NCBI RefSeq assembly: GCF_009914755.1
Contig: NC_060933.1
Origin: the human T2T-CHM13v2.0 reference genome, Homo sapiens
Length of the DNA: 64,000 nucleotides
Strand: one strand, 5' to 3'
In this document: positions 2,954 through 48,329 of the stretch, piece after piece
Layout: each line of letters begins with the position of its first letter
Numbering within the stretch: position 1 is the stretch's first letter
Translations under genes and position numbers: made by a program
The notes under the pieces: model-generated
Told to the model about the DNA's origin: nothing
The model's database searches: none
Seen by the model: the letters and a program-made list of their open reading frames with translations, nothing else

Positions 2954-2968
2954 GGAATCTTCCGGAAT
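2954..2968 (+). promoter_or_regulatory. Perfect heat-shock-element motif nGAAnnTTCnnGAAn (GGAATCTTCCGGAAT); representative of about 40 copies across the window
   Basis: Parses as gGAAt-cTTCc-gGAAt. Other copies include 4268, 5076, 6344, 8616, 10300, 11831, 13495, 15206, 15406, 37311, and reverse-strand copies such as 45571, 48382, 52270. This is a motif match only; binding is not shown. Confidence 0.55.
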
Positions 2969-25800: not shown

Positions 25801-28800
25801 GAAGGGAATGGAATGGAATGGAAACTAATAGAATGGAATCAACCCGAGTGGAATGGAATGGAAAGGACTGGAATGGAATGGAATGGAATGGAATCAACTC
25901 GATTGTAATGGAATGGAATGGAATGGAATGGAATGGAATGGAATTAACCCGAATACAATGGAATGGAATGGAATGGAACGGAATGGAGTGGAATGGAATG
26001 GAATCAACCCGAGTGCAGGGGAATGGAATGGAATGGAATGCAATGGAATGGAATCATCCGGAATGGAATGGAATGGAATGGAATGCAAAGCAATGGAATC
26101 AACTCGATTACAATGGAATGGAATGGAATGGAAAGGAATGGAATGGAATGGAATCAACGCGAGTGCAGGGGAATGGAATGTAATGGAATGCAATGGAATG
26201 GAATCTTCCGGAATGGAATGGAATGGAATGGAATGGAATCAACCCGAGTGCAATGGAATGGAGTGGAATGGAATGGAATGGAATGGAACAACCCAAATGG
26301 AATCGAATGTAATGGAGAGTAAGGGAGTTGAATAGAATCAATCCGAATGTAATGGCATGGAATTGAATGGAATGGAATGGAATGGAATGGAACGGAAAGG
26401 AATGGAATGGAATGGAATGGAATGGAATGGAAAGGAATGGAATGAACGCGAGAGCAGGGGAATGGAATGGAATGGAATGCAATGGAATGGAATATTCCGG
26501 AATGGAATGGAATGGAATGGAATGGAATGGAATGGAATAAACCCGAGTGCAATGGAATGGAGTGGAATGGAATGGAATGGTATGGAACAACCCGAATGGA
26601 ATGGAATGTAATGGAGAGTAAGGGAGTTGAATAGAATCAATCCGAATGGAATGGAATGGAATGGAACGGAATGGAATTGAATGGAATGGAATGGAATGCA
26701 ATGGAATGGAATCACCCCGAGTGCAATGGAATGGAGAGGAATGGAATGGAATGGAATGGAAACTACCCGAATGGAATGGAATGTAATGGAGCGTAAGGGA
26801 ATTGAATAGAATCAATCCGAATGTAATGGAATGGAATGGAACGGAATGGAATGGAATGGAATGGAATGGAATGGAATGCAATGGAATGGAATCAACCCGA
26901 GTGCAATCAAATGGAATCGAATTGAATGGAATGCAATGGAATGGATTCAACTTGAATGGAAAGGAAAGAATGGAATCAACACGAGTGGAAGGGCATGGAT
27001 TGGAATGGAATGGAATGGAATCAACCCGAGTACAGGGGAATGGAATGGAATGGAATGCAATGGAATGGAATCATCCGTAATGGAATGGAAAGGAATGGAA
27101 TGGAATGGAAAGGAATGGAATGGAATGGAATGGAATGGAATGGAATCAAGTCGATTGTAATCGAATGGAATGGAATGGAATTAACCCGAATAGAATGGAA
27201 TGGAATGGAATGGAACGGAACGGAATGGAATGGAATGGAATGGAATGGAATGGAATGGAATGGAACGGAATGGAATGGAATGGAATGGAATGGAACGGAA
27301 CGGAATGGAATGGAATGGAATGGAATCTTACGGAATGGAATGGAATGGAATGGAATGGAATGGAATGAAATGCAATGGATTCAAGTCGATTGCAATGGAA
27401 TGGAATAGAATGGAATGGAATGGAATGGAATGGAATTAATCCAAATAGAATGGAATGGAATGGAATGGAACGGAATGGAATGGAATGGAATGGTATGGAA
27501 TGGAATGGAATGGTACGGAATAGAATGGAATGAAACGAATTGTAATGGAATGTAATTGAATGGAATGGAATGGAATGGAATGGAATCAACGCGATTGCAG
27601 CGGAATGTAATGGAACGGAATGCAATGGAATGGAATCATCCGGAATGGAATGGAATGGAATGGAATGCAATCAACCTGATGCAATGGAATGGAGTGGAAT
27701 GGAATGGAATGGAATGGAAACATCCCGAATGGAATGGAATGGAATGGAGTGTAAGGGAATTGAATAGAATCAATCCGAATGTAATGGAATGGAATGGAAT
27801 GAAATGTAATGGAATGGAATGGAATGGAATCAACCCGAGTGCAATGGAATGGATACGAATGGAATGGAATGGAATGGAATGGATTCAACAAGAATGGAAT
27901 GGAAAGGAATGGAATCAACCCGAGTGTAGTGGAATGGAATGGAACGGAATGGAATGGGATGGAATGGAATGGTACGGAATAGAATGGAATGGAATGAAAT
28001 GGAATGGAATGGAATGAACCCGTGAGCAATGGAATGGAATGGAATGGAATGGAATGGATTCAACTCGAATGGAATCAACTCGATTGCAATGGAATGGAAA
28101 GGAATGGAAAGGAATAGAATGGAATCAACCCGAGTGAAATGGAATGGAAAGACTGGAATGGAGTGGAATGGAATGGAATGGAATTAACCCGAATAGAATG
28201 GAATGGAACGGAATGGAACGGAATGTAATGGAATGGAATGGAATGGAATCAACCCGAGTGCAGGGGAATGGAATGGAATGGAATGCAATGGAATGGAATC
28301 ATCCAGAATGGAATGGAATGGAATGGAATGGAATGGGATGGAATCAACTCGATTTCAATGGAATGGAATGGAATAGAATGGAATGGAATTAACAAGAATA
28401 GAATGGAATGGAATGGAATAGAATGGAACAGAAAGGAATGGAATGGAATGGAATGGAATCAACCCAAGTACAGGGGAATGGAATGGAATGGAATTCCATG
28501 GAATGGAATCATCCGAAATGGAATGGAATGTAATGGAATGGAATGGAATCAACCCGAGTGCAATGGAATGGAGAGGAATGGAATGGAATGGAATGGAAAC
28601 TACCCGAATGGAATGGAATGTAATGGAGTGTAAGGGAATTGAATAGAATGAATCCGAATGGAATGGAATGGAATGGAATGGAATGGAATGGAATGGAATG
28701 GAATGCAATGCCATGGAATCAACCCGAGTGCAATCGAATGGAATCGAATGGAATGGAATGCAATGGAATGGATTCAACTTCAATGGAATGGAAAGAATGG

Positions 28801-31800
28801 AATCAACACGAGTGGAATGGCATGGATGGGAATGGAATGGAATGGAATCAACCCGAGTACAGGGGAATGGAATGGAATGGAATGCAATGGAATGGAATCA
28901 TCCGTAATGGATTGGAAAGTAATGGAATGGAATGGAATGGAATGGAATGGAATGGAATGGAATGGAGTCAACTCGATTGCAATCGAATGGAATGGAATGG
29001 AATTAACCCAAATAGAATGGAATGGAATGGAATGGAACGGAACGGAATGGAATGGAATGGAATGGAATGGAACGGAACGGAACGGAATGGAATGGAATGG
29101 AATGGAATGGAATCAACGCGAGTGCAGGGGAATGGAATGGAATGGAATGCAATGGAATGGAATCTTCCGGAATGGAATGGAATGGAATGGAATGGAATGG
29201 AATGGAATGAAATGCAATGGATTCAACTCGATTGCAATGGAATGGAACAGAATGGAATGGAATGGAATGGAATGGAATTAACCCGAATAGAATGGAATGG
29301 AATGCAATGGAACGGAATGGAACGGAATGGAATGGAATGGAATGGAATGGAATGGAATGGAATGGAATGGTATGGAATGGAATGGAATGGTACGGAATAG
29401 AATGGAATGGAACGAATTGTAATGGAATGGAATTGAATGGAATGGAATGGAATCAACGCGAGTGCAGGGGAATGGAATGGAATGGAATGCAATGGAATGG
29501 AATCATCCGGAATGGAATGGAATGGAATGGAATCAACCCGAGTGCAATGGAATGGAGTGGAATGGAATGGAATGGAATGGAACAACCCGAATAGAATGGA
29601 ATGTAATGGAGAGTAAGGGAGTTGAATAGAATCAATCCGAATGTAATGGAATGGAATGGAACGGAATGGAATTGAATGGAATGGAATGGAATGGAATGGA
29701 ATGGAATCAACTCGATTGCAATCGAATGGAATGGAATGGAATTAACCCAAATAGAATGGAATGGAATGGAATGGAACGGAACGGAATGGAATGGAATGGA
29801 ATGGAATGGAATGGTATGGAATGGAATGGAATGGTACGGAATAGAATGGAATGGAACGAATTGTAATGGAATGGAATTGAATGGAATGGAATGGAATCAA
29901 CGCGAGTGCAGGGGAATGGAATGGAATGGAATGCAATGGAATGGAATCATCCGGAATGGAATGGAATGGAATGGAATCAACCCGAGTGCAATGGAATGGA
30001 GTGGAATGGAATGGAATGGAATGGAACAACCCGAATAGAATGGAATGTAATGGAGAGTAAGGGAGTTGAATAGAATCAATCCGAATGTAATGGAATGGAA
30101 TGGAACGGAATGGAATTGAATGGAATGGAATGGAATGGAATGGAATGGAATCAACTCGATTGCAATCGAATGGAATGGAATGGAATTAACCCAAATAGAA
30201 TGGAATGGAATGGAATGGAACGGAACGGAATGGAATGGAATGGAATGGAATGGAATGGAACGGAACGGAACGGAACGGAATGGAATGGAACGGAATGGAA
30301 TGGAATGGAATGGAATCAATGCGAGTGCAGGGGAATGGAATGGAATGGAATGCAATGGAATGGAATCATCCGGAATGGAATGGAATGGAATGGAATGGAA
30401 GGGAATGGAATGGAATCAACTCGATTTCAATGGAATGGAATGGAATAGAATGGAATGGAATTAACACGAATAGAATGGAATGGAATGGAATTGAATGGAA
30501 CAGAAAGGAATGGAATGGAATGGAATGGAATCAACCCACTTGCAGGGGAATGGAATGGAATGGAATTCAATGGAATGGAATCATCCGGAATGGAATGGAA
30601 TGGAATGGAATGGAATGGAATGGAATGGAATCAACCCGAGTGCAATGGAATGGAGAGGAATGGAATGGAATGGAATGGAAACTACACGAATCGAATGGAA
30701 TGTAATGGAGTGTAAGGGAATTGAATAGAATGAATCCGAATGGAATGGAATGGAATGGAATCAACGCGAGTGCAGGGGAATGGAATGTAATGGAATGCAA
30801 TGGAATGGAATCTTCCGGAATGGAATGGAATGGAATGGAATGCAATGGATTCAACTCGATTGCAATGGAATGGAATAGAATGGAATGGAATGGAATGGAA
30901 TGGAATTAACCCGAATAGAATGGAATGGAATGGAACGGAATGGAACGGAACGGAATGGAATGGAATGGAATGGAATGGAATGGAATGGAATGGAATGGAA
31001 TGGTGGGGAATGGAATGGAATGGAATGGAATCAACGCGAGTGCAGGGGAATGTAATGGAAAAGAATGTAATGGAATGGAATCATCCGGAACGCAATGGAA
31101 TGGAATGGAATGGAATGGAATCAACCCGAGTGCAATGGAATGGAGTGGAATGGAATGGAATGGAATGGAACAACCCGAATGGAATGGAATGTAATGGAGT
31201 GTAAGGGAGTTGAATAGAATCAATCCGAATGTAATGGAATGGAATGGAACGGAATGGAATGGAATGGAATGGAATGCAATTGAATGGAATCAACCCGAGT
31301 ACAATGGAATGGAATGGAATGGAATGGAATGGAATGGAATGGAATGGAATGGAATGGCTTCAAACCGAATGGAAAGGAAAGGAATGGAATCAACACAAGT
31401 GGAATGGAATGGAATGGAATGGAATGCAATCGAATGGAATGGAATGGTATGGAATAGAATGGAATGGAAAGAAATGGAATGGAATGGAATCGTTCCGAGT
31501 GGAATAGGAGGGAATGTATTCGAGTGGATTGGAAAGGAATGGAATCAACCAGAGCGGAATGGAAGGGAATGGAATGGAATGGAAACTAATAGAATGGAAT
31601 CAACCCGAGTGGAATGGAATGGAAAGGACTGGAATGGAATGGAACGGAATGGAATGGAATGGAATGGAATGGAATTAACCCAAATACAATGGAATGGAAT
31701 GGAATGGAACGGAATGGAGTGGAATGGAATGGAATCAACCCGAGTGCAGGGGAATGGAATGGAATGGAATGGAATGCAATGGAATGGAATCATCCGGAAT

Positions 31801-31960
31801 GGAATGGAATGGAATGGAATGCAAAGCAATGGAATCAACTCGATTGCAATGGAATGGAATGGACTGGAAAGGAATACATTGGAATCAACCCGAGTGGAAT
31901 GGAATGGAAAGGACTGGAATGGAGTGGAATGGAATGGAATGGAATGGAATGGAATCAACT
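16860..31960 (+). repeat. Near-identical tandem duplication, unit about 7.32 kb (about 16860-24185 and 24185-31960, second copy expanded)
   Basis: Private variants are shared at about 7.33 kb offset: CAACGCGACTGC (17158/24492), CCGAAAGTAAT (17357/24691), GGCGTGGATT (17537/24871), 4-nt GGAT unit (about 17797/25131), CAAGTCGATT (19808/27147), GCAGCGG (20263/27597). The offset jumps to about 7763 after 29.8 kb (ORF pairs 22332/30095, 23037/30800). Confidence 0.9.
29369..30256 (+). repeat. Nested 444-bp tandem duplication within the second 7.3-kb copy
   Basis: GGTATGG...GGTACGG occurs at 29369 and 29813, and TAACCCAAATAG at 29743 and 30187. Identical ORFs lie at 29447 and 29891. Only one copy is present at the homologous site near 22050-22500. 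Confidence 0.88.
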
Positions 31961-34900
31961 CGATTGGAATGGAATGGAATGGAATGGAATGGAATGGAAT
32001 TAACCCGAATAGAATGGAATGGAATTAAATGGAACGGAACGGAATGAAATGGAATGGAATGGAATGGAATGGAATGGAATGGAATTGAATGGAATCAACC
32101 CGACTGCAGGGGAATGGAATGGAATGGAATGCAATGGAATGGATTCAACTTGAATGGAATGGAAAGAATGGAATCAACACGAGTGGAATGGCATGGATTG
32201 CAATGGAATGGAATGGAATGAACCCGAGTACAGGGGAATGGAATGGAATGGAATGCAATGGAATGGAATCATACGTAACGGAATGGAAAGGAATGGAATG
32301 GAATGGAATGGAATGGAATGGAATGGAATGGAATGGAATCAACTCGATTGCAATCGAATGGAATGGAATGGAATTAACCCGAATAGAATGGAATGGAATG
32401 GAATGGAACGGAACGGAACGGAACGGAATGGAATGGAATGGAATGGAATGGAACGGAAAGGAACGGAATGGAATGGAATGGAATGGAATGGAAGGGAATC
32501 AACGCGAGTGCAGGGGAATGGAATGAAATGGAATGCAATGGAATGGAATCTTCCGGAATGGAATGGAATGGAATGGAATGGAATCAACCCGAGTGCAATG
32601 GAATGGAGTGGAATTGAATGGAATGGAATGTAACAACCCGCATGGAATGGAATGTAATGGAGAGTAAGGGAGTTGAATAGAATCATTCCGAATGTAATGG
32701 AATGGAATGGAACGGAATGGAATTGAATGGAATGCAATGGAATGGAATCAACCCGTGTGCAATGGAATGGAGAGGAATGGAATGGAATGGAATGGAAACT
32801 ACCCGAATGGAATGGAATGTAATGGAGTGTAAGGGAATTGAATAGAATCAATCTGAATGTAATGGAATGGAATGGAACGGAATGGAATGGAATGGAATGG
32901 AATGGAATGGAATGGAATCAACAAGAGTGCAATCGAATGGAATCGAATGGAATGCAATGCAATGGAATGGATTCAACTTGAATGGAATGGAAAGAATGGA
33001 ATCAACACGAGTGGAATGGCATGTATTGGAATGGAATGGAATGGAATCAACCCGAGTACAGGGCAATGGAATGGAATGGAATGCAATGGAATGGAATCAT
33101 CCGTAATGGAATGGAAAGGAATGGAATGGAATGGAATGGAATGGAATCAACTCGATTGCAATCGAATGGAATGGAATGGAATTAACCCAAATAGAATGGA
33201 ATGGAATGGAATGGAACGGAACGGAATGGAATGGAATGGAATGGAATGGAATGGAACGGAATGGCATGGAATCAACGCGAGTGTAGGGGAATGGAATGGA
33301 ATGGAATGCAATGGAATGGAATCTTCCGGAATGGAATGGAATGGAATGGAATGAAATGCAATGGATTCAACTCGATTGCAATGGAATGGAATAGAATGGA
33401 ATGGAATGGAATGGAATGGAATTAACCCGAATAGAATGGAATGGAATGGAATGGAACGGAATGGAATGGAATGGAATGGAATGGAATGGAATGGTATGGA
33501 ATGGAATGGAATAGTACGGAATAGAATGGAATGGAACGAATTGTAATGGAATGCAATTGAATGGAATGGAATGGAATGGAATGGAATCAACGCGAGTGCA
33601 GGGGAATGTAATGGAACGGAATGCAATGGAATGGAATCATCCGGAATGGAATGGAATGGAATGGAATGGAATCAACCCGAGTGCAATGGAATGGAGTGGA
33701 ATGGAATGGAATGGAATGGAAGAACCCGAATGGAATGGAATGGAATGGAGAGTAAGGGAGTTGAATAGAATCAATCCGAATGTAATGGAATGGAATGCAA
33801 CGGAATGGAATGGAATGGAATGCAATGGAATGCAATGGAATGGAATCAACCCGAGTACAATGGAATGGAATGGAATGGAATGGAATGGAATGGAATGGAA
33901 TGGAATGGAATGGAATTGAATGGATTGGAATGCCTTCAAACCGAATGGAATGGAAAGGAATGGAATCAACACGAGTGGAATGGAATGGAATGGAAAGGAA
34001 TGGAATGGAATGGAATGGTACGGAATAGAATGGAATGGAACGAAATGGAATGGAATGGAATGGAATAGAATGGAATCGTTCAGAGTGGAATAGGAGGGAA
34101 CGTATTCGAGTGGAATGGAAAGGAATGGAATCAACCAGAGTGGAATGGAAGGGAATGGAATGGAATGGAAACTAATAGAATGGAATCAACCCGAGTGGAA
34201 TGGAATGGAAAGGACTGGAATGGAATGGAATGGAATGGAATCAACTCGATTGTAATGGATTGGAATGGAATGGAATTGAATGGAACGGAATGGAATTAAC
34301 CCTAATACAACGGAATGGAATGGAATGGAACGGAATGGAGTGGAATGGAATGGAATCAACCCGAGTGCAGGGGAATGGAATGGAATGGAATGCAATGGAA
34401 TGGAATTATCCGGAATGGAATGGAATGGAATGGAATGCAAAGCAATGGAATCAACTCGATTGCAATGGAATGGAATGGAATGGAAAGGAATACATTGGAA
34501 TCAACCCGAGTGGAATGGAATGGAAAGGACTGGAATGGAGTGGAATGGAATGGAATGGAATGGAATGGAATCAACTCGATTGGAATGGAATGGAATGGAA
34601 TGGAATGGAATGGAATGGAGTTAAACCGAATAGAATGGATTGGAATTAAATGGAAAGGAACGGAATGGAATGGAATGGAATGGAATGGAATGGAATCAAC
34701 CCGACTGAAGGGGAATGGAATGGAATGGAATGCAATGGAATGGACTCAACTTGAATGGAATGGAAAGAATGGAATCAACAAGAGTGGAATGGCATGGATT
34801 GCAATGGAATGGAATGGAATCAACCCGAGTACAGGGGAATGGAATGGAATGGAATGCAATGGAATGGAATCATCCGTAATGGAATGGAAAGGAATGGAAT

Positions 34901-37685
34901 GGAATGGAATGGAATGGAATAGAATGGAAAGGAATCAACTCGATTTCAATGGAATGGAATGGAATGGAATTAACCCGAATAGAATGGAATGGAATGGAAT
35001 GGAAGGGAATGGAACGGAATGGAATGGAATGGAATGGAATGGAACGGAACGGAACGGAATGGAATGGAATGGAATGGAATCAACGCGAGAGCAGGGGAAT
35101 GGAATGTAATGGAATGCAATGGAATGGAATCTTCCGGAATGGAATGGAATGGAATGGAATCAACCCGAGTGCAATGGAATGGAGTGGAATGGAATGGAAT
35201 GGAATGGAACAACCCGAATGGAATGGAATGTAATGGAGAGTAAGGGAGTTGAATAGAATCAATCCGAATGTAATGGAATGGAATGCAACGGAATGGAATG
35301 GAATGGAATGGAATGGAATGGAATGGAATGCAATGGAATGGAATCAACCCGAGTACAATGGAATGGAATGGAATGGAATGGAATGGAATGGAATCAACTC
35401 GATTTCAATGGAATGGAATGGAATAGAATGGAATGGAATTAACAGGAATAGAATGGAATGGAATGGAATGGAATGGAATGGAACAGAAAGGAATGGAATG
35501 GAATGGAATCAACCCAAAAGCAGGGGAATGGAATGGAATGGAATTCAATGGAATGGAAACATCCGGAATGGAATGGAATGGAATGGAATGGAATGGAGTG
35601 GAATGGAATGGAATCAACCCGTGTGCAATGGAATGGAGAGGAATGGAATGGAATGGAATGGAATGGAATGGAATGGAACGGAAAGGAATGGAATGGAATG
35701 GAATGGAATGGAATGGAATGGAATGGAATGGAATGGAATCAACGCGAGTGCAGGGGAATGGAATGGAATGGAATGCAATGGAATGGAATCTTGCGGAATG
35801 GAATGGAATGGAATGGAATCAACCCGAGTGCAATGGAATGGAGTGGAATGGAATGGAATGGAATGGAACAACCCGAATAGAATGGAATGTAATGGAGAGT
35901 AAGGGAGTTGAATAGAATCAATCCGAATGTAATGGAATGGAATGGAACGGAATGGAATTGAATGGAATGGAATGGAATGGAATGGAATGGAATCAACTCG
36001 ATTGCAATCGAATGGAATGGAATGGAATTAACCCAAATAGAATGGAATGGAATGGAATGGAACGGAACGGAATGGAATGGAATGGAATGGAATGGAATGG
36101 AACGGAACGGAACGGAACGGAATGGAATGGAACGGAATGGAATGGAATGGAATGGAATCAATGCGAGTGCAGGGGAATGGAATGGAATGGAATGCAATGG
36201 AATGGAATCATCCGGAATGGAATGGAATGGAATGGAATGGAATGGAATGGAATGGAATAGAATGCAATGGAATGGAATCAACCCGAGTACAATGGAATGG
36301 AATGGAATGGAATGGAACGGATTGGAATGGAATGGAATGGAATGGAATGGAATTAAATGGAATGGAAAGGAATGGAATCAACCCGAGTGCAGGGGAAAGG
36401 AATGGAATGGAATGCAATGGAATGGAATGGAATGGAATGGAATGGAATGGAATGGAATCAACCCGAGTGGAATGGCATGGAATGGAATGCAAAGGAATGG
36501 AATGGAATGGAATCAACTCGAGTGGAAAGGAATGGAATGGAATGGAAAGGAATGGAATGAAATCAAGTCGAGTGGAATGGAATATAATGGAATGGATTGG
36601 AATGGATTGCAATGGAATGAAATGGAATGGAATGGAATGGAATCAATCATTCCGAGTGGAATGGAAGGGAATGTAATGGAGTGGAAAGAAGGGAATGGAA
36701 TCAACCCGAGTGGAATGCAAGGCAATGGAATGGAATGGAAAGGAATGGAATGGAATCAACTCGATTGCAATCGCATGGAATAGAATGGAATGGAATGGAA
36801 AGGAATGGAATGGAATGAAATGGGATGGAATGGAATGCAATGGAATGGAATCAACCCGAGTGCAATCGAATGGAATCGAATGGAATGGAATGCAATGGAA
36901 TGGATTCAACTTGAATGGAATGGAAAGAATGGAATCAACACGAGTGGAATGGCATGGATTGGAATGGAATGGAATGGAATCAACCCGAGTACAGGGGAAT
37001 GGAATGGAATGGAATGCAATGGAATGGAATCATCCGTAATGGAAAGGAAAGGAATGGAATGGAATGGAATGGAATGGAATGGAATGGAATCAACTCGATT
37101 GCAATCGAATGGAATGGAATGGAATTAACCCGAATAGAATGGAATGGAATGGAATGGAACGGAACGAAACGGAATGGAATGGAATGGAATGGAATGGAAT
37201 GGAACAGAAAGGAATGGAATGGAATGGAATGGAATGGAATGGAATGGAATGGAATGGAATGGAATCAACGCGAGTGCAGGAAAATGGAATGTAATGGAAT
37301 GTAATGGAATGGAATCTTCCGGAATGGAATGGAATGGAATGGAATCAACCCGAGTGCAATGGAATGGAGTGGAATGGAATGGAATGGAATGGAACAACCT
37401 GAATGGAATCGAATGTAATGGAGAGTAAGGGAGTTGAATAGAATCAATCCGAATGTAATGGAATGGAATGGAACGGAATGGAATTGAATGGAATGGAATG
37501 GAATGCAATGGAATGGAATCAACCCGAGTGCAATGGAATGGAGAGGAGGGGAATGGAATGGAGTGGAAACTACCCGAATGGAATGGAATGTAATGGAGTG
37601 TAAGGGAATTGAATAGAATCAATCCGAATGTAATGGAATGGAATGGAACGGAATGGAATGGAATGGAATGGAATGGAAAGAAGGG

Positions 37686-37713
37686 AATGGAATCAACCCG
37701 AGTTGATTCCATT
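37686..37713. other. Satellite strand-switch (inversion) breakpoint; 28-bp quasi-palindrome
   Basis: AATGGAATCAAC-CCGA-GTTGATTCCATT has 12-bp perfectly complementary arms (37686-37697 and 37702-37713). CGAGT (37699-37703) is shared by the + strand word CAACCCGAGT and the - strand word CAACTCG. ORFs crossing the site (37643..37900 +, 37619..37972 -) switch from MEWNG to IPFHS. Confidence 0.95.
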
Positions 37714-40570
37714 GCTTTGCATTCCGTTCCATTCCATTCCTTTTCATTGTATTCGGGTTAATTCCATTGCATTCCATTCCATTCCTTTCCATTCCATTCC
37801 ATTCCATTACAATGGAGTTGATTCCATTCCTTTCCATTCCATTCCATTCCATTCCAGTCCTTTCCATTCCATTCCACTCGGGTTGATTCCATTCTATTAG
37901 TTTCCATTCCATTCCATTCCCTTCCATTGCACTCTGGTTGATTCCATTCCTTTCCATTTCACTCGAATACATTCCGTCCTATTCCACTCGGAACGATTCC
38001 ATTCCATTCCATTCCATTCCATTCCATTCCATTCCATTCCATTCCATTTCGTTCCATTCCATTCTATTCCGTACCATTCCATTCCATTCCATTCCATTCC
38101 ATTCCATTCCATTCCACTCGTGTTGATTACATTCCTTTCCATTCCATTCAGTTTGAAGGCATTCCATTCCATTCAATTCCATTCCATTCCATTCCATTCC
38201 ATTCCATTCCATTCCATTCCATTCCATTGTACTCGGGTTGATTCCATTCCATTGCATTCTATTCCATTCCATTCCATTCCATTCCATTCCATTCCATTCC
38301 ATTCCGGATGATTCCATTCCATTGCATTCCATTCCATTCCATTCCATTCCCCTGCACTCGGGTTGATTACATTCCATTCCCTTCCCTTCCATTCCTTTCC
38401 ATTCCATTCCATTCCATTCTATTCGGGTGAATTCCATTCCATTCCATTCCATTCCATTCCATTCCATTCCATTCCATTCCATTCCATTCCATTCCATTGC
38501 AATCGAGTTGATTCCATTACATTCCATTCCATTCCGTTGCGGATGATTCCATTCCATTGCATTCCATTCCATTCCATTCCCCTGCAGTCGGTTTGATTCC
38601 TTTCCATTCCATTCCATTCCATTCCATTCTATTCCATTCCGTTCCATTCCGTTGCATTCCATTCTATTCGGGTTAATTCCATTCCATTCCTTTCCATTCC
38701 ATTCCAATCGAGTTAATTCCATTCCATTGCATTCCATTCCACTCCATTCCAGTCCTTTCCATTCCATTCCACTCGGGTTGATTCCATTCTATTCCTTTCC
38801 ATTCCATTCCATTGCAATAGAGTTGATTCCACTGCATTGTATTCCATTCCATTCCATTCCATTCCGGATGATTCCATTCCATTGCATTCCATTCCATTCC
38901 ATTCCCCTGCACTCGGGTTGATTCCATTCCATTCCACTCCATTCCCTTCCATTGCATTCCATTCCATTGTATTCGGGTTAATTCCATTCCATTCCATTCC
39001 ATTCCATTCCATTCCATTCCATTACAATCGAGTTGATTCCATTCCATTCCATTCCATTCCATTCCATTCCATTCCTTTCCATTCCATTCCACTCGGGTTG
39101 ATTCCATTCTATTAGTTTCCATTCCATTCCATTCCCTTCCATTCCACTCTGGTTGATTCCATTCCTTTCCATTCCACTCGAATACATTCCCTCCTATTCC
39201 CTCGGAACAATTCCATTCCATTCCATTGCATTCTATTTCATTCCATTTCGTTCCATTCCATTCTATTCCATTCTGTTCCGTTCCGTTCCATTCCATTCCA
39301 TTCCATTCTATTCGGGTTAATTCCATTCCATTCCATTCGATTGCAAACGAGTTGATTCCATTCCATTCTATTCCATTCCATTCCATTCCTTTCCATTCCA
39401 TTACGGATGATTCCATTCCATTGCATTTTATTCGATTCCATTCCCCTGTACTCGGGTTGATTCCATTCCATTCCGTTCCATTCAATTCCATTCCTTTCCA
39501 TTCCGTTCCGTTCCATTCCATTCCATTACAATCGAGTTGATTCCATTCCATTCCATTCCATTCCAGTCCTTTCCATTCCATTCCACTCGGGTTGATTCCA
39601 TTCTATTAGTTTCCATTCCATTCCATTCCCTTCCATTCCACTCTGGTTGATTCCATTCCTTTCCATTCCACTCGAATACATTCCCTCCTATTCCAATCGG
39701 AACGATTCCATTCCATTCCATTCCATTCCATTCCATTCCATTCCATTTCGTTCCATTCCATTCTATTCCGTATCATTCCATTCCATTCCATTCCATTCCA
39801 TTCCATTGTACTCGGGTTGATTCCATTCCACTGCATTCCATTCCATTCCATTCCATTCCATTCTGTTGCATTCCAATCCATGCCCTTCCACTCGGGTTGA
39901 TTTCATTCTTTCCATTCCATTCAAGTTGAATCCATTCCATTGCATTACATTCCATTCGATTCCATTCGATTGCACTCGGGTTGATTCCATTCCATTGCAT
40001 TCCATTCCATTCCATTCCATTCCATTCCATTCCGTTCCGTTCCATTCCATTACATTCGGATTGATTCTATTCAATTCCCTTACACTCCATTACATTCCAT
40101 TCCATTCGGGTAGTTTCCATTCCATTCCATTCCATTCCTCTCCATTCCATTGCACTCTGGTTGATTCCATTCCATTGCATACCATTCCATTCCATTCAAT
40201 TCCATTCCGTTCCATTCCATTCCATTACATTCGGATTGATTCTATTCAACTCCCTTACTCTCCGTTACATTCCATTCCATTCGGGTTGTTCCATTCCATT
40301 CCATTCCATTCCACTCCATTCCATTGCACTCGGGTTTATTCCATTCCATTCCATTCCATTCCATTCCATTCCATTCCATTCCATTCCTGAAGATTCCATT
40401 CCATTGCATTCCATTCCATTCCATTCCCCTGCACTCGCATTGATTCCATTGCATTCCATTCCATTCCATTCCATTCCGTTCCATTCCATTCCTTTCCGTT
40501 CCGTTCCATTCCATTCCATTCCATTCCATTCCGTTCCGTTCCGTTCCGTTCCATTCCATTCCATTCCATT

Positions 40571-40650
40571 CCATTCCGTTCCGTTCCGTTCCGTTCCGTT
40601 CCGTTCCGTTCCATTCCGTTCCGTTCCGTTCCGTTCCGTTCCGTTCCGTT
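40571..40650. repeat. (CCGTT)n variant-pentamer expansion: [CCATT(CCGTT)7] x2
   Basis: Seven CCGTT units at 40576-40610, one CCATT, then seven CCGTT at 40616-40650. Confidence 0.9.
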
Positions 40651-43600
40651 CCATTCCATTCCATTCTATTCGGGTTAATTCCATTCCATTCCATTGGATT
40701 GCAATCGAGTTGATTCCATTCCATTCCATTCCATTCCATTCCATTCCATTCCATTCCTTTCCATTCCATTACGGATGATTCCATTCCACTACATTACATT
40801 CCATTCCATTCCCCTGTACTCGGGTTGATTCCATTCCATTCCATTCCATTCCATTCCATTCTATTCCATTCCATTCCATTCCGGAAGATTCCATTCCATT
40901 GCATTCCATTCCATTCCATTCCCCTGCACTCACGTTGATTCCATTCCATTCCATTCCATTCCATTCCATTCCATTCCATTCCATTCCGTTCCGTTCCGTT
41001 CCGTTCCATTCCATTCCATTCCATCCTATTCGGGTTAATTGCATTCCAATCTATTCGATTGCCATCGAGTTGATTCCATTCCATTCCATTCCATTCCATT
41101 CCATTCCATTCCATTCCTTTCCATTCCATTACGGATCACTCCATTCCATTGCATTCCATTCCATTCCATTCCCCTGTACTCGGGTTGATTCCATTCCATT
41201 CCATTCCACTCCATTCGGTTCCGTTGCATTCCATTATATTGCATTCCATTCTATTCGGGTTAATTCCATTCCATTCTATTCCATTCCATTCCATTCCATT
41301 CCATTGCAATGGAGTTGATTCCATTCCATTCCATTCCATTCCGGATGATTCCATTCCATTGCATTCCATTCCATTCCATTCCCCTGCACTCGTGTTGATT
41401 CCATTCCCTTCCATTCCATTCCATTCCATTCCATTCTATTCCGATTAATTCCATTCCATTCCATTCCATTCCATTCCATTCCATTGCAATCGAGTTGATT
41501 CCATTCCATTCCTTTCCATTCCATTCCATTGCCTTGCATTACACTCGGGTTGATTCCAATCCCTTCTTTCCACTCCATTACATTCCCATCCATTCCAATC
41601 GGAATGATTGATTCCATTCCATTCCATTCCATTTCATTCCATTGCAATCCATTCCAATCCATTCCATTCCATTCCATTCCACTCGAGATGACTTCATTCC
41701 ATTCCTTTCCATTCCATTCCATTCCATTCCTTTCCACTCGAGTTGATTCCATTCCATTCCAATCCATTGCATTCCATTCCATGCGATTCCACTCGGGTTG
41801 ATTCCATTCCTTTGCATTCCATTCCATTCCATTCCATTGCATTCCATTCCATTCCAATCCGTTGCATTCCATTCCATTACATTCGGATTGATTCTATTCA
41901 ACTCCCTTACTCTCCAATACATTCCATTCCATTCGGGTTGTTCCATTCCATTCCATTCCATTCCACTCCATTCCATTGCACTCGGGTTGATTCCATTCCA
42001 TTCCATTCCATTCCATTCCGGATGATTCCATTCCATTGCATTCCGTTCCATTACATTCCCCTGCACTCGGGTTGATACCATTCCATTCCATTCCATTCCA
42101 TTCCGGATGATTCCATTCCATTGCATTCCATTCCATTCCATTCCCATGCACTCGGGTTGATTACATTCCATTTCCTTCCCTTCCATTCCTTTCCATTCCA
42201 TTCCATTCCATTCTATTCGTGTGAATTCCATTCCATTCCATTCCATTCCACTCCATTCCATTCCATTCCATTCCATTCCATTCCATTCAATTGGAATCGA
42301 GTTGATTCCATTCTATTCCATTCCATTCCGTTCCGGATGATTCCATTCCATTCCATTCCATTCCATTCCATTCCATTCCCCTGCAGTCGGGTTGATTCCA
42401 TTCCATTCCATTCCATTCCATTCCATTCCATTCCATTCCATTCCGTTCCGTTCCATTCCATTCCACTCCATTCTATTCGGGTTAATTCCATTCCATTCCA
42501 TTCCATTCCATTCCATTCCATTCCAATCGAGTTGATTCCATTCCATTCCATTCCATTCCATTCCATTCCATTCCACTCCATTCCAGTGCTTTCCATTCCA
42601 TTACACTCGGGTTGATTCCATTCTATTCCTTTAAACTCCTTTCCATTCCATTGCAATGGAGTTGATTCCATTGCTTTGCATTCCATTCCATTCCATTCCA
42701 TTCCGGATGATTCCTTTCCATTGCATTCCATTCCATTCCATTCCCCTGCACTCGGGTTGATTCCATTCCATTCCACTCCATTCCGTTCCATTCCATTCCA
42801 TTCCATTTTATTCGGGTTAATTCCATTCCATTCCATTCCATTCCATTCCATTCCATTACAATCGAGTTTATTCCATTCCATTCCATTCCATTCCATTCCA
42901 TTCCATTCCGGAAGATTCTATTCCATTGCATTCCATTGCATTCCATTCCATTCCATTCCATTCCATTCCATTCCGGAAGATTCCATTCCATTGCATTCCA
43001 TTCCATTCCATTCCCCTGCACTCGCCTTGGTTCCATTCCATTCCATTCCATTCCATTCCATTCCATTCCATTCCGTTCCGTTCCGTTCCGTTCCATTCCA
43101 TTCCATTCCATTCCATTCCGTTCCGTTCCATTCCATTCCATTCCATTCTATTCGGGTTAATTCCATTCCATTCCATTCGATTGCAATCGTGTTGATTCCA
43201 TTCCATTCCATTCCATTCCATTCCATTCCATTCCATTCCATTGCACACGGTTTCATTCCATTCCATTCCATTCCATTCCATTCCATTCCATTCCATTCCT
43301 TTCTATTCCATTTCATTCCATTCTATTCTATTCCGTACCATTCCATTCCATCCCATTCCATTCCGTTCCATTCCATGCCATTACACTCGGGTTGATTCCA
43401 TTCCTTTCCATTCCATTCTTGTTGAATCCATTCCATTCCATTCCATTCCATTCCATTCCATTCGAATCCATTCCATTGCACTCGGGTTGATTCCATTCCA
43501 TTCCATTCCATTCCATTCCATTCCATTACATTCGGATTGATTCTATTCAATTCCCTTACACTCCATTACATTCCATTCCATTCGGGATGTTTCCATTCCA

Positions 43601-46600
43601 TTCCATTCCATTCCACTCCATTCCATTGCATCAGGTTGATTGCATTCCATTCCATTCCATTCCATTCCGGATGATTCCATTCCATTGCATTCCATTCCAT
43701 TCCATTCCCCAGCACTCGAATTGATTCCATTCCATTCCATTCCATTCCATTCCATTCCGTTCCATTCCATTCCATTCCATTCTATTCCGGTTAATTCCAT
43801 TCCATTCCATTCCATTCCATTCCATTCCATTCCATTCCATTGCAATCGAGTTGATTCCATTCCATTCCATTCCATTCCGTTCCGGATGATTCCATTCCAT
43901 TGCATTCCATTCCGTTCCGGATGATTCCATTCCATTCCATTCCATTACATTCCATTCCATTCCCCTGCAGTCGGGTTGATTCCATTCCATTCCATTCCAT
44001 TCCATTCCATTCCATTCCATTGCATTCCGTTCAATTCCATTCCATTCCATTCTATTCGGGTTAATTCCATTCCATTCCATTCCATTCCATTCTATTCGGG
44101 TTAATTCCATTCCATTCTATTCCATTCCATTCCATTCTATTCCATTCCATTGCAATCGAGTTGAATCCATTGCATTTCATTCCATTCCATTCCATTCCAT
44201 TCCATTCCATTCCGGAAGATTCCATTCCATTGCATTCCATTCCATTCCATTCCCCTGCACTCGCCTTGATTCCATTCCATTCCATTCCATTCCATTCCAT
44301 TCCATTCCGTTCCGTTCCGTTCCGTTCCGTTCCATTCCATTCCATTCCATTCCATTCCGTTCCGTTCCATTCCATTCCATTCCATTCTATTCGGGTTAAT
44401 TCCATTCCATTCCATTCGATTGCAATCGTGTTGATTCCATTCCATTCCATTCCATTCCATTCCATTCCATTCCATTCCGGATGATTCCATTCCATTGCAT
44501 TCCATTCCATTCCATTCCCCTGCACTCGCGTTGATTCCATTCTATTCCATTCTATTCCATTCCATTCCTTTCCTTTCCGTTCCATTCCGTTCCATTCCGT
44601 TCCGTTCCGTTCCATTCCATTCCATTCCATTCTATTCGGGTTAATTCCATTCCATTCCATTCGATTGCAATCGAGTTGATTCCATTCCATTCCATTCCGT
44701 TCCATTCCATTCCATTTCATTCCATTCCTTTCCATTCCATTACGGATGATTCCATTCCATTGCATTCCATTCCATTCCATTCCCCTGTACTCGGGTTGAT
44801 TCCATTCCATTCCATTCCAATCCATGCCATTCCACTCGTGTTGATTCCATTCTTTCCATTCCATTCAAGTTGAATCCATTCCATTGCATTCCATTCCATT
44901 CGATTCTATTCGATTGCACTCGGGTTGATTCCATTCCATTGCATTGCATTCCATTCCATTCCATTCCATTCCATTCCATTCCATTCCGTTCCATTCCATT
45001 CCATTACATTCGGATTGATTCTATTCAACTCCCTTACTCTCCATTACATTCGATTCCATTCGGGTTGTTCCATTCCATTCCATTCCATTCCACTCCATTC
45101 CATTGCACTCGGGTTGATTCCATTACATTCCATTCCATTCCGGAGCATTCCATTCCATTGCATTCCATTACATTCCATTCCCCTGCACTCGCGTTGATTC
45201 CATTCCTTTCCATTCCATTCCATTCCATTCCATTCCATTCCATTCCGTTCCGTTCCATTCCATTCCATTCCATTCCATTCCATTCCGTTCCGTTCCATTC
45301 CATTCCATTCCATTCTATTCGGGTTAATTCCATTCCATTCCATTCCATTGCAATCGTGTTGATTCCATTCCATTCCATTCCATTCCATTCCATTCAATTC
45401 CATTCCGTTCCATTCCATTCCATTACATTCGGATTGATTCTATTCAACTCCCTTACTCTCCATTACATTCCATTCCATTCGGGTTGTTCCATTCCACTCC
45501 ATTCCATTCCACTCCATTCCATTGCACTCGGGTTTATTCCATTCCATTCCATTCCATTCCATTCCATTCCATTCCGGAAGATTCCATTCCATTGCATTCC
45601 ATTCCATTCCATTCCCCTGCACTCGCGTTGATTCCACTCCATTCCATTCCATTCCATTCCATTCCATTCCATTCCATTCCTTTCCGTTCCATTCCATTCC
45701 ATTCCATTCCATTCCATTCCGTTCCGTTCCGTTCCATTCTATTCCATTCCATTCTATTCAGGTTAATTCCATTCCATTCCATTCGATTGCAATCGAGTTG
45801 ATTCCATTCCATTCCATTCCATTCCATTCCATTCCATTCCTTTCCATTCCATTACGGATGATTCCATTCCATTGCATTCCATTCCATTCCATTCCCCTGT
45901 ACTCGGGTTGATTCCATTCCATTCCATTCCAATCCATGCCATTCCACTCGTGTTGATTCCATTCTTTCCATTCCATTCAAGTTGAATCCATTCCATTGCA
46001 TTCCATTCCATTCGATTCCATTCGATTGCACTCGGGTTGATTCCATGGCATTGCATTCCATTCCATTCCATTCCATTCCATTCCATTCCATTCCATTCCT
46101 TTCCATTCCATTCCATTCCATTCCATTCGGATTGATTCTATTCAATTCCCTTACACTCCATTACATTCCATTCCATTCGTGTAGTTTCCATTCCATTCCA
46201 TTCCATTCCTCTCCATTCCATTGCACTCGGGTTGATTCCATTCCATTCCATTGCATTCCATTCCATTCCATTCCATTCCATTCCATTCCATTCCGGATGA
46301 TTCCATTCCATTGCATTCCATTCCATTCCATTCCCCTGCACTCGCGTTGATTCCATTCTATTCCATTCTATTCCATTCCATTCCCTTCCTTTCCGTTCCA
46401 TTCCATTCCATTCCATTCCATTCCATTCCATTCCGTTCTGTTCCGTTCCATTCCATTCCATTCCATTCTATTCGGGTTAATTCCATTCCATTCCATTCGA
46501 TTGCAAGCGAGTTGATTCCATTCCATTCCATTCCATTCCATTCCATTCCATTCCATTCCTTTCCATTCCATTACGGATGATTCCATTCCATTGCATTCCA

Positions 46601-48329
46601 TTCCATTCCATTCCCCTGTACTCGGGTTGATTCCATTCCATTCCATTCCAATCCATGCCCTTCCACTCGTGTTGATTTCATTCTTTCCATTCCATTCTAG
46701 TTGAATCCATTCCATTGCATTCCATTCCATTCGATTCCATTCGATTGCACTCGGGTTGATTCCATTCCATTGCATTCCATTCCATTCCATTCCATTCCAT
46801 TCCTTTCCATTCCATTCCATTACATTCGGATTGATTCTATTCAACTCCCTTACTCTCCATTACATTCGATTCCATTTGGGTTGTTCCATTCCATTCCATT
46901 CCATTCCACTCCATTCCATTGCACTCGGGTTGATTCCATTACATTCCATTCCATTCCGGAAGATTCCATTCCATTGCATTACATTACATTCCATTCCCCT
47001 GCACTCGCGTTGATTCCATTCCTTTCCATTCCATTCCATTCCATTCCATTCCGTTCCGTTCCACTCCATTCCATTCCATTCCATTCCATTTCGTTCCGTT
47101 CCATTCCATTCCATTTCATTCTATTCGGGTTAATTCCATTCCATTCCATTCGATTGCCATCGAGTTGATTCCATTCCATTCCATTCCATTCCATTCCATT
47201 CCATTCTATTCCATTCCATTGCAATCGAGTTGAATCCATTGCCTTTCATTCCATTCCATTCCATTCCATTCCATTCCGTAAGATTCCATTCCATTACATT
47301 CCATTCCATTCCATTCCCCTGCACTCGCGTTGATTCCATTCCATTCCATTCCATTCCATTCCGTTCCGTTCCATTCCATTCCATTCCATTCCTTTCCGTT
47401 CCATTGCATTCCATTCCATTCTATTCGGGTTAATTCCATTCCATTCCATTCGATTGCCATCGAGTTGATTCCATTCCATTCCATTCCATTCCATTCCATT
47501 CCATTCCATTCCATTCCTTTCCATTCCATTACGGATGACTCCATTCCATTGCTTTCCATTCCATTCCATTCCCCTGTACTCTGGTTGATTCCATTCCATT
47601 CCATTCCACTCCATTCGGTTCCGTTGCATTCCCTTGTATTGCATTCCATTCTAATCGGGTTAATTCCATTCCATTCGATTCCATTCCATTCCATTCCATT
47701 CCATTGCAATGGAGTTGATTCCATTCCATTCCATTCCACTTCATTCCATTGCAATCCATTCCAATCCATTCCATTCCATTCCATTCCACTCGAGTTGACT
47801 TCATTCCATTCCTTTCCATTCCATTCCATTCCTTTCCACTCGAGTTGATTCCATTCCATTCCAATCCATTGCATTCCATTCCATGCCATTCCACTCGGGT
47901 TGATTCCATTCCTTTGCATTCCATTCCATTCCATTCCATTGCATTCCATTCCATTCCATTCCGTTGCATTCCATTCCATTACATTCGGATTGATTCTATT
48001 CAACTCCCTTACTCTCCATTACATTCCATTCCATTCGGGTTGTTCCATTCCATTCCATTCCATTCCACTCCATTCCATTGCACTCGGGTTGATTCCATTC
48101 CATTCCATTCCATTCCATTCCGGATGATTCCATTCCATTGCATTCCGTTCCATTACATTCCCCTGCACTCGCGTTCATTCCATTCCATTCCATTCCATTC
48201 CATTCAATTCCATTCCATTACAATTCGTTCCATTCCATTCTATTCCGTACCATTCCATTCCTTTCCATACCATTCCATTCCATTCCATTCCATTCCATTC
48301 CGTTCCATTCCGTTCCATTCCATTCCATT

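What the first reader, a model, noticed from the sequence alone, without database searches (positions are those of the whole stretch)
37686..37713. Single clean inversion junction built on a 5-bp microhomology that creates a near-perfect palindrome
Seen: 37.7 kb of GGAAT is joined directly to at least 26.3 kb of ATTCC with no inserted foreign DNA. The join falls inside the CpG-containing variant words: + strand CAACCCGAGT overlaps the inverted CAACTCG word through CGAGT (37699-37703). The result is AATGGAATCAAC-CCGA-GTTGATTCCATT, one mismatch from a perfect 28-bp palindrome. Established: complete human assemblies show strand switches within HSat3 arrays. Inference: pure GGAAT has almost no self-complementarity, so the quasi-palindromic CAAC(C/T)CGAG words may be the preferred sites for strand switching, which would be a sequence rule for where HSat3 inversions break.
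Basis: partly seen in the sequence, partly recalled or inferred. Interest (0 to 1): 0.8.

Follow-up and report, generated by a model that had tools for sequence, protein, structure and literature searches.

The report
Amplified HSat3 strand-switch junction, chromosome 9
This is a real point where the chromosome 9 satellite-3 repeat flips strand at a 5-base overlap, but it is one of about 45 inherited copies of a single old junction, in an array already known to be full of such flips.

Summary
GGAAT repeats run to 37698 and ATTCC repeats run from 37704. CGAGT (37699-37703) is shared by a CAACCCGAGT word and an inverted CAACTCGATT word, and no foreign DNA lies between.

The 5-bp overlap is unlikely by chance: 42 of 20000 random joins of the two arms reach 5 bp. 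The 28-bp near-palindrome is not special: 19% of random joins give arms of 12 bp or more.

The junction is not unique. Its 27-mer occurs 40 times, and the family has 45 members, all on chr9 at 51-76 Mb. All 15 members read in sequence carry the same odd flank variants, so one junction was copied by large duplications. One of these is the published multi-megabase 9qh+ duplication; the twin at +10.62 Mb has 0 mismatches in 2000 bp.

On chr9 I located 198 switches, and parity implies at least 225. Of the 198, 186 fall into five sequence classes.

Six of 11 classes touch a CAAC-type word, but microhomology availability alone nearly explains this. Pure-pentamer junctions exist, and the strongest palindromic word hosts no convergent junction.

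Strand switches here are already in print; junction sequences apparently are not.

The parts
1..37698 (+). HSat3 arm with the GGAAT strand on top. It continues upstream of the window. The nearest mapped divergent junction is about 301 kb upstream, at chr9:57,644,416.
   Evidence: 4267 GGAAT vs 6 ATTCC; TRF period 5; junction map
37679..37693 (+). Idiosyncratic left-flank variant AGAAGGGAATGGAAT. It marks every copy of this junction family that was read.
   Evidence: Differs from 16 of 16 left paralogs in the window. Present in all 8 fetched copies L001-L008, and in the 4 further chr9 copies with one base changed at 63.585 Mb.
37694..37703 (+). CAACCCGAGT word of the left (GGAAT) lineage. The left breakpoint lies at its 3' end.
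   Evidence: Paralogs continue CAACCCGAGT|GCAAT or |GGAAT. The word occurs 116 times in the left arm.
37699..37703 (.). CGAGT, the 5-bp microhomology shared by both parental lineages; this is the junction itself.
   Evidence: Random joins reach 5 bp or more in 42 of 20000.
37699..37705 (-). Retained part (CGAGTTG on the + strand) of an inverted CAACTCGATT-type word of the right lineage.
   Evidence: 11 of 13 window paralogs of the right-proximal marker are preceded by TCGAGTTGATTCC.
37686..37713 (.). 28-bp quasi-palindrome with 12-bp arms and a CCGA centre. As a single strand it is predicted to fold into a hairpin of -11.0 kcal/mol.
   Evidence: Not unusual for a join of this kind.
37711..37725 (+). 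Right-flank marker ATTGCTTTGCATTCC, which identifies the right parental lineage.
   Evidence: Conserved in the family copies, with single-base changes in some.
37704..64000 (-). HSat3 arm with the ATTCC strand on top, i.e. inverted. It continues downstream. The nearest mapped divergent junction is about 288 kb downstream, at chr9:58,233,264.
   Evidence: 6 GGAAT vs 2943 ATTCC; TRF; junction map

Best explanation
The site is a genuine GGAAT-to-ATTCC strand-switch (inversion) junction inside the chr9 q12 HSat3 array.

Origin (inferred). It arose once. A DNA end or nascent strand ending in ...GGAATCAACC-CGAGT (a CAACCCGAGT word) was joined, through the 5-bp overlap CGAGT/ACTCG, to the opposite strand of a CAACTCGATT word elsewhere in the same array. 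Nothing was inserted. That is a microhomology-mediated event. It could be replicative template switching (the MMBIR/FoSTeS type) or alternative end joining of breaks. Which of the two applies is not shown.

Spread (shown). The junction then travelled as a passenger in later segmental duplications of tens of kilobases to megabases, some of them inverted. It is now present about 45 times across 24.6 Mb of the array. The copy in this window and its identical twin 10.62 Mb away belong to the recent multi-megabase 9qh+ duplication of CHM13.

Palindrome. The local 28-bp near-palindrome is a by-product of joining a pentamer array to its reverse complement at equivalent words.
For: Real switch and clean join.

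Parental lineages and the 5-bp overlap: 11 of 13 paralogs; an unbroken left-lineage paralog, GGAAAGAAGGGAATGGAATCAACCCGAGT|GGAATGCAAGG, lies upstream in L004.

Overlap beyond chance: 42 of 20000 random joins.

One event, amplified:
- The 27-mer has 40 genome hits, all on chr9 at 51.07-75.68 Mb, and 0 for the reversed control.
- The 17-mer core has 47 chr9 hits. Of these, 45 are counted as switches: the 40 exact 27-mer matches plus 5 more read in sequence. Ten of the 40 were read in sequence.
- All 15 copies read in sequence share the odd flank variants.
- Flank identity to the window copy is 0.90-1.00.
- The twin at chr9:68,570,027 has 0 mismatches in 2000 bp.
- 37 of 37 mapped junctions in 55-61 Mb have a same-class twin at +10.57 to +10.66 Mb, and 25 of 25 in 52.3-54.2 Mb have one at +8.68 to +8.77 Mb.
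- Passages of Nurk et al. [quoted passage not shown]

Not an assembly artefact:
- Many diverged copies exist.
- 170 of 197 neighbouring mapped junctions alternate between convergent and divergent; shuffled labels give a mean of 99 and a maximum of 128.
- Strand switches are reported in hundreds of other assemblies (passages read).
Against: - The right lineage is inferred from paralogs that are only about 85-95% alike. More distal right-flank paralogs (7 of 7) carry ACTCGGGTTG, which would leave only a 2-bp exact overlap (GT). The 5-bp reading rests on the 27-nt exact match to the CGAGTTG...GCTTTGCATTCC lineage.
- The reciprocal junction predicted for a two-break inversion was not found. Of 30 pattern hits, 16 were fetched: 15 are not strand switches, and the one true switch has a different structure.
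- Only 15 of the 45 family members were read in sequence. The other 30 are inferred from the exact 27-mer and from parity.
- No reads were inspected.
Confidence: 0.7

Rival explanations
1. Fold-back (snap-back) inverted duplication. The nascent strand ending in CAACCCGAGT folded on itself at the quasi-palindrome CAAC/GTTG and copied its own strand, making a true palindrome centred on CCGA.
For: There are 12-bp perfect arms around a 4-nt centre, with a hairpin of -11.0 kcal/mol. The same CAACNCGAGTTGATT quasi-palindrome has also arisen in place, without any strand switch, on chr10, chr13/14/15/21 and at chr9 48.5 Mb. This looks like short-range template switching at this word.
Against: The arms are no more mirror-symmetric than random word-anchored pairs. 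Observed identity is 0.77-0.84 over 50-1000 bp against a null of 0.81-0.87, and 68-95% of null pairs do as well or better. No hit on the mirror diagonal appears among the 40 best inter-arm HSPs listed. From the 13th base onward the right flank follows its own lineage (ATTGCTTTGCATTCC), not the complement of the left flank.
Confidence: 0.1
2. Recurrent hotspot. The about 45 copies are independent strand switches that formed again and again at the same pair of words.
For: Both parental words are common: CAACCCGAGT about 3 per kb and CAACTCG about 2 per kb. CGAGT is one of the few 5-mers present on both strands.
Against: All 15 copies read share rare flank variants that the parental word families lack: AGAAGGGAAT on the left, and GCTTTGCATTCCGTTCC...TTTTCATTGTATTCGGGTTAATTCC on the right. 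Copies sit at fixed spacings from other junction classes, for example 12,681 bp from a D1 junction three times (positions). Whole series of junctions are duplicated in order. Apart from this family the junction core occurs only as non-switch word variants.
Confidence: 0.03
3. Ordinary two-break inversion sealed by end joining, with the 5-bp overlap a coincidence and the words playing no role.
For: Other junction classes in the same array lie in plain pentamers with 0-3 bp overlaps, for example GGAATGGATTCC, GGAATGG|CCATTCG and ATTCCAT|GGAAT.
Against: An overlap of 5 bp or more is expected in 0.21% of random joins. Both breakpoints falling in words is expected in about 0.5% of joins (0.075 x 0.071).
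Confidence: 0.12
4. Assembly artefact: a chimeric or fold-back read built into T2T-CHM13.
For: Inverted joins with short palindromes are a known signature of library artefacts (recalled). No reads were checked here.
Against: There are 45 copies with flank identities from 0.90 to 1.00 spread over 24.6 Mb. The mapped junctions alternate consistently. Independent assemblies report about 129 orientation switches per haplotype and 'hundreds of strand switches' in this array (passages).
Confidence: 0.02

Closest known systems
Inversion breakpoints (strand switches) of the chr9 HSat3B5 array. Sources: Altemose et al., bioRxiv 10.1101/2021.07.12.452052 (section 7 read); later population counts in bioRxiv 10.64898/2026.07.22.740206 and 10.64898/2026.09.03.749043 (passages read).
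   Same: Same array and same phenomenon. Those papers report 'over 200 inversion breakpoints' (a figure given jointly with beta-satellite arrays), 'hundreds of strand switches' whose number correlates with array length (r = 0.90), and about 129 switches per haplotype. My parity count of at least 225 in CHM13 agrees.
   Different: The passages I read give counts and positions only. They give no junction sequences, no microhomology and no grouping into classes. One of them reads the switches as 'stochastic byproducts' that are 'randomly distributed'. Here, 186 of 198 mapped junctions fall into five sequence classes that are copies of a few founders.
Recent multi-megabase 9qh+ HSat3 tandem duplication of CHM13 (Nurk et al. 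2022, PMC9186530, passages read).
   Same: This window lies in one copy of that duplication. The twin junction at +10.62 Mb is identical over 2000 bp, and 37 of 37 junctions in 55-61 Mb have twins.
   Different: That paper describes the duplication as an assembly-graph loop. It does not use inversion junctions as markers of the duplication.
Microhomology-mediated rearrangement junctions: MMEJ (alternative end joining) and MMBIR/FoSTeS template switching (general knowledge, recalled).
   Same: A short (5-bp) overlap shared by both parental sequences, no inserted bases, and an inverted join.
   Different: The pathway cannot be assigned from sequence. No templated insertion and no reciprocal partner junction was found.
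Fold-back inversions and palindromic junctions of breakage-fusion-bridge cycles; quasi-palindrome template-switch mutations (Ripley model, recalled).
   Same: A short palindrome sits at the join. The same word shows in-place quasi-palindrome 'completion' elsewhere.
   Different: There is no mirror symmetry of the arms beyond 12 bp, so the defining feature of a fold-back is not met for this junction.

Membership tests
Human satellite 3 (HSat3), chr9 q12 array | Pentamer GGAAT/ATTCC base repeat | tested here: met
   TRF finds period 5 over 6-37693 and 37706-63970, with 73-74% matches.
Human satellite 3 (HSat3), chr9 q12 array | Interspersed CAACCCGA(A/G)T-type 10-mers (the classical satellite III signature; recalled from Prosser et al. 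1986, seen here only in a reference list) | tested here: met
   CAACCCGA[AG]T occurs at 3.66 per kb in the left arm and 3.42 per kb in the right arm.
Human satellite 3 (HSat3), chr9 q12 array | Assignment to subfamily B5 by the diagnostic k-mers of Altemose et al. | not tested
   Inferred only from position. The window is chr9:57.9 Mb (hub annotation), inside the array called HSat3B5 in the papers read.
Strand-switch (inversion) junction of a satellite array | Abrupt change of repeat strand with satellite on both sides | tested here: met
Microhomology-mediated junction (MMEJ / MMBIR) | Overlap of a few bases shared by both parental sequences, beyond chance | tested here: met
   A 5-bp CGAGT overlap from paralog reconstruction. 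Random joins reach 5 bp or more in 0.21%.
Microhomology-mediated junction (MMEJ / MMBIR) | No long homology at the breakpoints (which would instead indicate NAHR) | tested here: met
   The parental lineages differ immediately on both sides of CGAGT: C vs T before it and G vs T after it.
Microhomology-mediated junction (MMEJ / MMBIR) | Enzymatic pathway (Pol theta end joining vs replicative switching) | not testable with these tools
   Sequence alone does not separate the two pathways.
Fold-back inverted duplication | Arms are mirror images of each other about the junction | tested here: not met
   Mirror identity is 0.77-0.84 against a null of 0.81-0.87. No mirror-diagonal hit appears among the 40 best HSPs listed.
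Reciprocal two-break inversion | A partner junction joining the two complementary ends | tested here: inconclusive
   The predicted partner pattern gave 30 rows, of which 16 were fetched. Fifteen are not switches and 1 is a switch of a different structure. The partner may have been lost or altered.

The most novel reading that the evidence does not exclude
The whole 'mosaic inversion' pattern of the chr9 HSat3 array (at least 225 switches in CHM13) may descend from only about a dozen founder junctions. These would mostly have formed at the few short sequences that exist on both strands of the satellite, in or next to CAACNCGANT words and GCAAT variants, and then been multiplied by segmental duplication.

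On this reading the CAACNCGAGT word is a template-switch hotspot. It produces both in-place quasi-palindrome variants (chr10, the acrocentrics) and array-scale strand switches. The junction classes would then be ready-made markers for reconstructing how 9q12 heterochromatin expanded in human populations.
Probability: 0.35. Interest if true: 0.55.

Novelty: new member of a known kind. Interest (0 to 1): 0.4.

Why it matters
Strand switches in the chr9 HSat3 array are known but have been treated as counts.

Read at base level, they turn out to be a small set of heritable junction classes. That has three consequences:
1. It explains why their number tracks array length: they are passengers of duplication, not fresh events.
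2. It gives exact k-mer markers for tracing the highly variable 9qh heterochromatin block across haplotypes.
3. It shows that counting raw junctions as independent breakpoints would badly inflate any test of a breakpoint rule.

The strand of HSat3 also sets which strand yields the G-rich satellite III transcripts (recalled). Each switch therefore flips the local transcription polarity.

For this single junction by itself, the result is modest.

Tried and rejected
1. First reading of the microhomology as only 2 bp (GT). This came from 7 distal right-flank paralogs carrying ACTCGGGTTG. It was revised after the exact 27-nt right-proximal lineage was found.

2. Kilobase-scale palindrome. Rejected.

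3. Predicted reciprocal partner of the junction.
   - The pattern ATTCC-N(0-12)-ATTGCAATGGAATGG gave 30 rows.
   - The 22 hits of the form ATTCCACTCGATTGCAATGG looked exactly as predicted. However, 12 of the 12 of this form that I fetched have GGAAT on both sides and are a word variant.
   - Two close variants of that form are also not switches, nor is the hit at 56.677 Mb.
   - Only the hit at 63,534,237 is a true switch, and it has an 11-bp TCGATTGCAAT overlap.

4. Idea that classes C7 and D1 are the two ends of one inversion (site 1 CAACCCGAG|TGCAATGG, site 2 GGAATGCA|ACGGAATGG). The natural word GGAATGCAACGGAATG exists 14 times in the left arm, but the paralog test was uninformative because the flanks are too repetitive. 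Compatible, not shown.

5. Perfect-palindrome convergent junction at CAACTCGATTGCAATCGAGTTG: 0 genome hits.

6. Same-overlap junctions with other word variants (AATCAACDCGAGTTGATT). There are 2 sites on chr3 arms, not examined, and 2 on chr10 that are not switches.

7. Resources that were unavailable or unhelpful.
   - The Science version of Altemose et al. was not held under the id I tried, so the preprint was read instead.
   - A literature search for the 10-mer words returned only unrelated primer matches.

8. A complete map of all switches was not reached.

Full report
**Observation**

The window is pentamer satellite throughout. TRF calls a TGGAA array at 6-37693 and an ATTCC array at 37706-63970. 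GC skew is about +0.62 in every 1-kb bin up to 37000 and about -0.61 from 38001 on. Left of 37701 there are 4267 GGAAT and 6 ATTCC; right of it there are 6 and 2943. In 100-bp bins the flip is abrupt.

The sequence across the join is ...GGAAAGAAGGGAATGGAATCAACCCGAGTTGATTCCATTGCTTTGCATTCCGTTCC..., with no foreign DNA. The 28-mer at 37686-37713 differs from its own reverse complement at one base pair only.

**Parental lineages and the overlap**

I reconstructed what each side looked like before the join from its paralogs in the window.

- Left side. Sixteen paralogs of the left flank continue through (GGAAT)n-CAACCCGAGT and then GCAAT or GGAAT. A copy of the junction elsewhere (L004) has, just upstream, an unbroken paralog carrying the same rare prefix: GGAAAGAAGGGAATGGAATCAACCCGAGT|GGAATGCAAGG.
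- Right side, first reading. I first took seven more distal paralogs, all with ACTCGGGTTG, which would leave only a GT overlap.
- Right side, revised reading. The right-proximal 27 nt (CGAGTTGATTCCATTGCTTTGCATTCC) has exact matches in the window. Of the 13 other copies of its marker ATTGCTTTGCATTCC, 11 are preceded by TCGAGTTGATTCC, the reverse complement of a CAACTCGA-type word.

The parents were therefore CAACC[CGAGT]GCAAT/GGAAT and GCAAT[CGAGT]TGATTCC. This step is an inference from paralogs that are only 85-95% alike.

**Chance**

I joined random positions of the left arm to random positions of the right arm 20000 times.

- Overlap length: 0 bp in 65% of joins, 2 bp or more in 14%, 4 bp or more in 0.7%, and 5 bp or more in 0.21% (42 joins). 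The overlap is therefore meaningful.
- Palindrome: a perfect arm of 12 bp or more with a spacer of up to 6 bp appeared in 18.9% of the same joins. A period-5 array abutting its own reverse complement is symmetric about some point within a few bases of any join. The near-palindrome is therefore not evidence for anything.

The arms are also not mirror images. Anchored at GGAATCAAC/GTTGATTCC, mirror identity over 50-1000 bp is 0.77-0.84, against 0.81-0.87 for random word-anchored pairs. The 40 best inter-arm BLAST hits listed include none on the mirror diagonal. A fold-back origin is not supported.

**The junction is a family, not a single site**

The window's assembly can be searched.

- The 27-mer GGAATCAACCCGAGTTGATTCCATTGC occurs 40 times (27 forward, 13 reverse), all on contig 9 between 51.07 and 75.68 Mb. 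The reversed control gives 0.
- The 17-mer core occurs 61 times: 47 on contig 9 and 14 on contigs 13, 14, 15 and 21.
- Five further contig-9 hits, seen in fetched DNA, are true switches with a single-base change in the flank. The family therefore has 45 members.
- The two hits at 48.5 Mb and all 14 acrocentric hits have ATTCC on both sides and are not switches.

I read 15 family members in sequence: the window, L001-L008, four, one and the twin. All 15 carry the same rare variants, AGAAGGGAAT on the left and GCTTTGCATTCCGTTCC...TTTTCATTGTATTCGGGTTAATTCC on the right. The ordinary paralogs lack these. Flank identity to the window copy over 900 bp per side ranges from 0.90 to 1.00. This is identity by descent: one junction, copied.

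**How it was copied**

The copy at chr9:68,570,027 has 0 mismatches to the window over 2000 bp. All 37 mapped junctions between 55 and 61 Mb have a twin of the same class at +10.57 to +10.66 Mb. All 25 between 52.3 and 54.2 Mb have one at +8.68 to +8.77 Mb.

Nurk et al. [quoted passage not shown] They also mention a 'mosaic inversion structure' in HSat arrays. The window lies in one copy of that duplication.

Smaller units recur as well. A divergent junction lies exactly 12,681 bp upstream of this junction type three times (positions).

**Census of strand switches on chr9**

I found recurrent classes by generic patterns and by fetching intervals that must contain a switch by parity.

| Class | Type | Sequence at the join | Copies |
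|---|---|---|---|
| D1 | divergent | CCATTGCAC\|ACGGAATGG | 82 |
| C1 | convergent | this finding | 45 |
| C7 | convergent | CAACCCGAG[TGCA]TTCCATT | 28 |
| C6 | convergent | GGAATAAAC\|CCATTCCGTTCC | 20 |
| D2 | divergent | CCATTAC\|GGAATGG | 11 |
| D3 | divergent | ATTCCAT\|GGAAT | 2 |

There are also several classes of one or two copies.

In total 198 junctions are placed, and 186 of them belong to five classes. Of 197 neighbouring pairs, 170 alternate between convergent and divergent as true switches must. Shuffled labels give a mean of 99 and a maximum of 128 in 5000 trials. The 27 parity violations imply at least 225 switches.

Only a few members of each class were verified in fetched sequence; the rest rest on the exact motif and on the alternation. 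The count agrees with 'over 200 inversion breakpoints' (Altemose et al. preprint, section 7 read; that figure is given jointly with beta-satellite arrays).

CAACNCGANT words cover 7.5% of the left arm and 7.1% of the right arm. I could read 11 distinct chr9 classes (C1, C3, C4, C5, C6, C7, C8, D1, D2, D3, D6).

- Six have a breakpoint in or abutting such a word: C1 (both sides), C5, C6, C7 (at the boundary), D1 and D6.
- Five do not.
- Three further junctions at the array edge (76.54-76.57 Mb) were not analysed.
- Elsewhere in the genome, a chr17 junction ends exactly after CAAACCGAGT, while chr1, chr7 and chr14 junctions lie in plain pentamers.

Six of 11 exceeds uniform breakage, which expects about 17% for at least one of two breakpoints (binomial p = 0.005). 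It does not clearly exceed a model in which joins need a shared 5-mer and sites are weighted by abundance. In that model 33.5% of joins touch a word (p = 0.12).

The pure pentamer offers at most 2-3 bp of overlap between strands. Any microhomology-dependent process is therefore steered towards variant words and GCAAT pentamers without these being structurally special.

Three results argue against a palindrome-driven rule:
- The longest strand-shared words (ATTGCAAT; TCGATTGCAATCGA) host no convergent junction (0 genome hits) and one divergent junction.
- CAACCCGAGT-centred 40-mers fold at only -1.3 kcal/mol, against -0.75 for random array 40-mers and -4.0 for CAACTCGATTGCAAT.
- The class count is small and its ascertainment is uneven.

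The rule is partly supported and is best restated as microhomology availability.

**Mechanism**

Shown: a clean inverted join with a 5-bp overlap, followed by amplification through duplication.

Inferred: the join was microhomology-mediated, either by a replicative template switch onto the same-sense strand at ACTCG or by alternative end joining of breaks.

I looked for the reciprocal junction that a two-break inversion predicts (ATTCC...[ACTCG]ATTGCAATGG).
- The pattern gave 30 rows.
- Of the 16 rows fetched, 14 are a word variant inside GGAAT arrays, one is a small non-switch feature, and one is a true switch of different structure.
- The partner is therefore unfound, and the pathway stays open.

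**Literature**

- Strand switches in this array are in print: Altemose et al. preprint (sections and passages read).
- bioRxiv 10.64898/2026.07.22.740206 (passages) reports 'hundreds of strand switches', a number that correlates with array length (r = 0.90), and interprets them as 'stochastic byproducts'.
- bioRxiv 10.64898/2026.09.03.749043 (passages) reports about 129 switches per haplotype.
- A search for HSat3 together with 'inversion breakpoints' and 'microhomology' found no paper. Searches for HSat3B5 and for HSat3 with 'strand switch' found nothing at junction level.

**Verdict**

The feature is real, its description is accurate, and the overlap is non-random. It is a member of a known phenomenon and one of about 45 copies of a single founder. 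The modestly new point is that the array's switches collapse into a handful of heritable junction classes.

Noticed in passing
L026-L030 (contigs 13, 14, 15, 21) and L031-L032 (contig 9 at 48.50 and 48.55 Mb): The junction core CAACCCGAGTTGATTCC also occurs 16 times inside uniformly ATTCC-oriented HSat3, as CCATTCAACCCGAGTTGATTCC. That is the usual CCATTCCACTCGGGTTGATTCC with three clustered substitutions, equivalent to the word flipped in place. No strand switch is involved.
   Followed up: partly
L076, L077 (contig 10 at 42.223 and 42.236 Mb): GGAATCAACACGAGTTGATTGGAAGGG sits inside GGAAT-oriented satellite. Two substitutions turn GTGGAAT into GTTGATT, the exact complement of AATCAAC. This looks like quasi-palindrome completion by short-range template switching.
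   Followed up: partly
Contig 9, 22 sites listed (e.g. L059-L063, L067-L073): ATTCCACTCGATTGCAATGG mimics a divergent strand switch but is a variant (AATCAAC changed to ATTCCAC) of the CAACTCGATTGCAAT word inside GGAAT arrays. Some copies are tandem at a spacing of about 3.2 kb. Motif hits alone can therefore mislead.
   Followed up: yes
window 16559-22633 vs 23878-29977, and 7650-11435 vs 10860-14615: There are local direct duplications inside the left arm: 7.3 kb at 98.4% identity and 3.2 kb at 96.5%. Elsewhere the arm is only about 90% self-similar, so there is no strict higher-order repeat here.
   Followed up: no
Contig 9: junction classes C7 (e.g. 52,957,870) and D1 (e.g. 52,975,696): C7 and D1 fit as the two reciprocal ends of one inversion between CAACCCGAG|TGCAATGG and GGAATGCA|ACGGAATGG. 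The second is a natural word seen 14 times in the window's left arm. D1-C7-D1 also forms a tandem unit of about 21.2 kb. This is compatible but not shown.
   Followed up: partly
Contig 9, 63,534,237 (L064): A single-copy divergent switch lies exactly on the palindromic word, CCATTCGATTGCAATGGAATGG, with an 11-bp overlap TCGATTGCAAT between the parental forms. It sits between two inverted copies of the junction family.
   Followed up: partly
Contig 3 at 139,994,933 and 173,739,200: The perfect 18-bp palindrome AATCAACTCGAGTTGATT occurs twice on chromosome 3 arms, far from any large satellite array. It was not examined.
   Followed up: no
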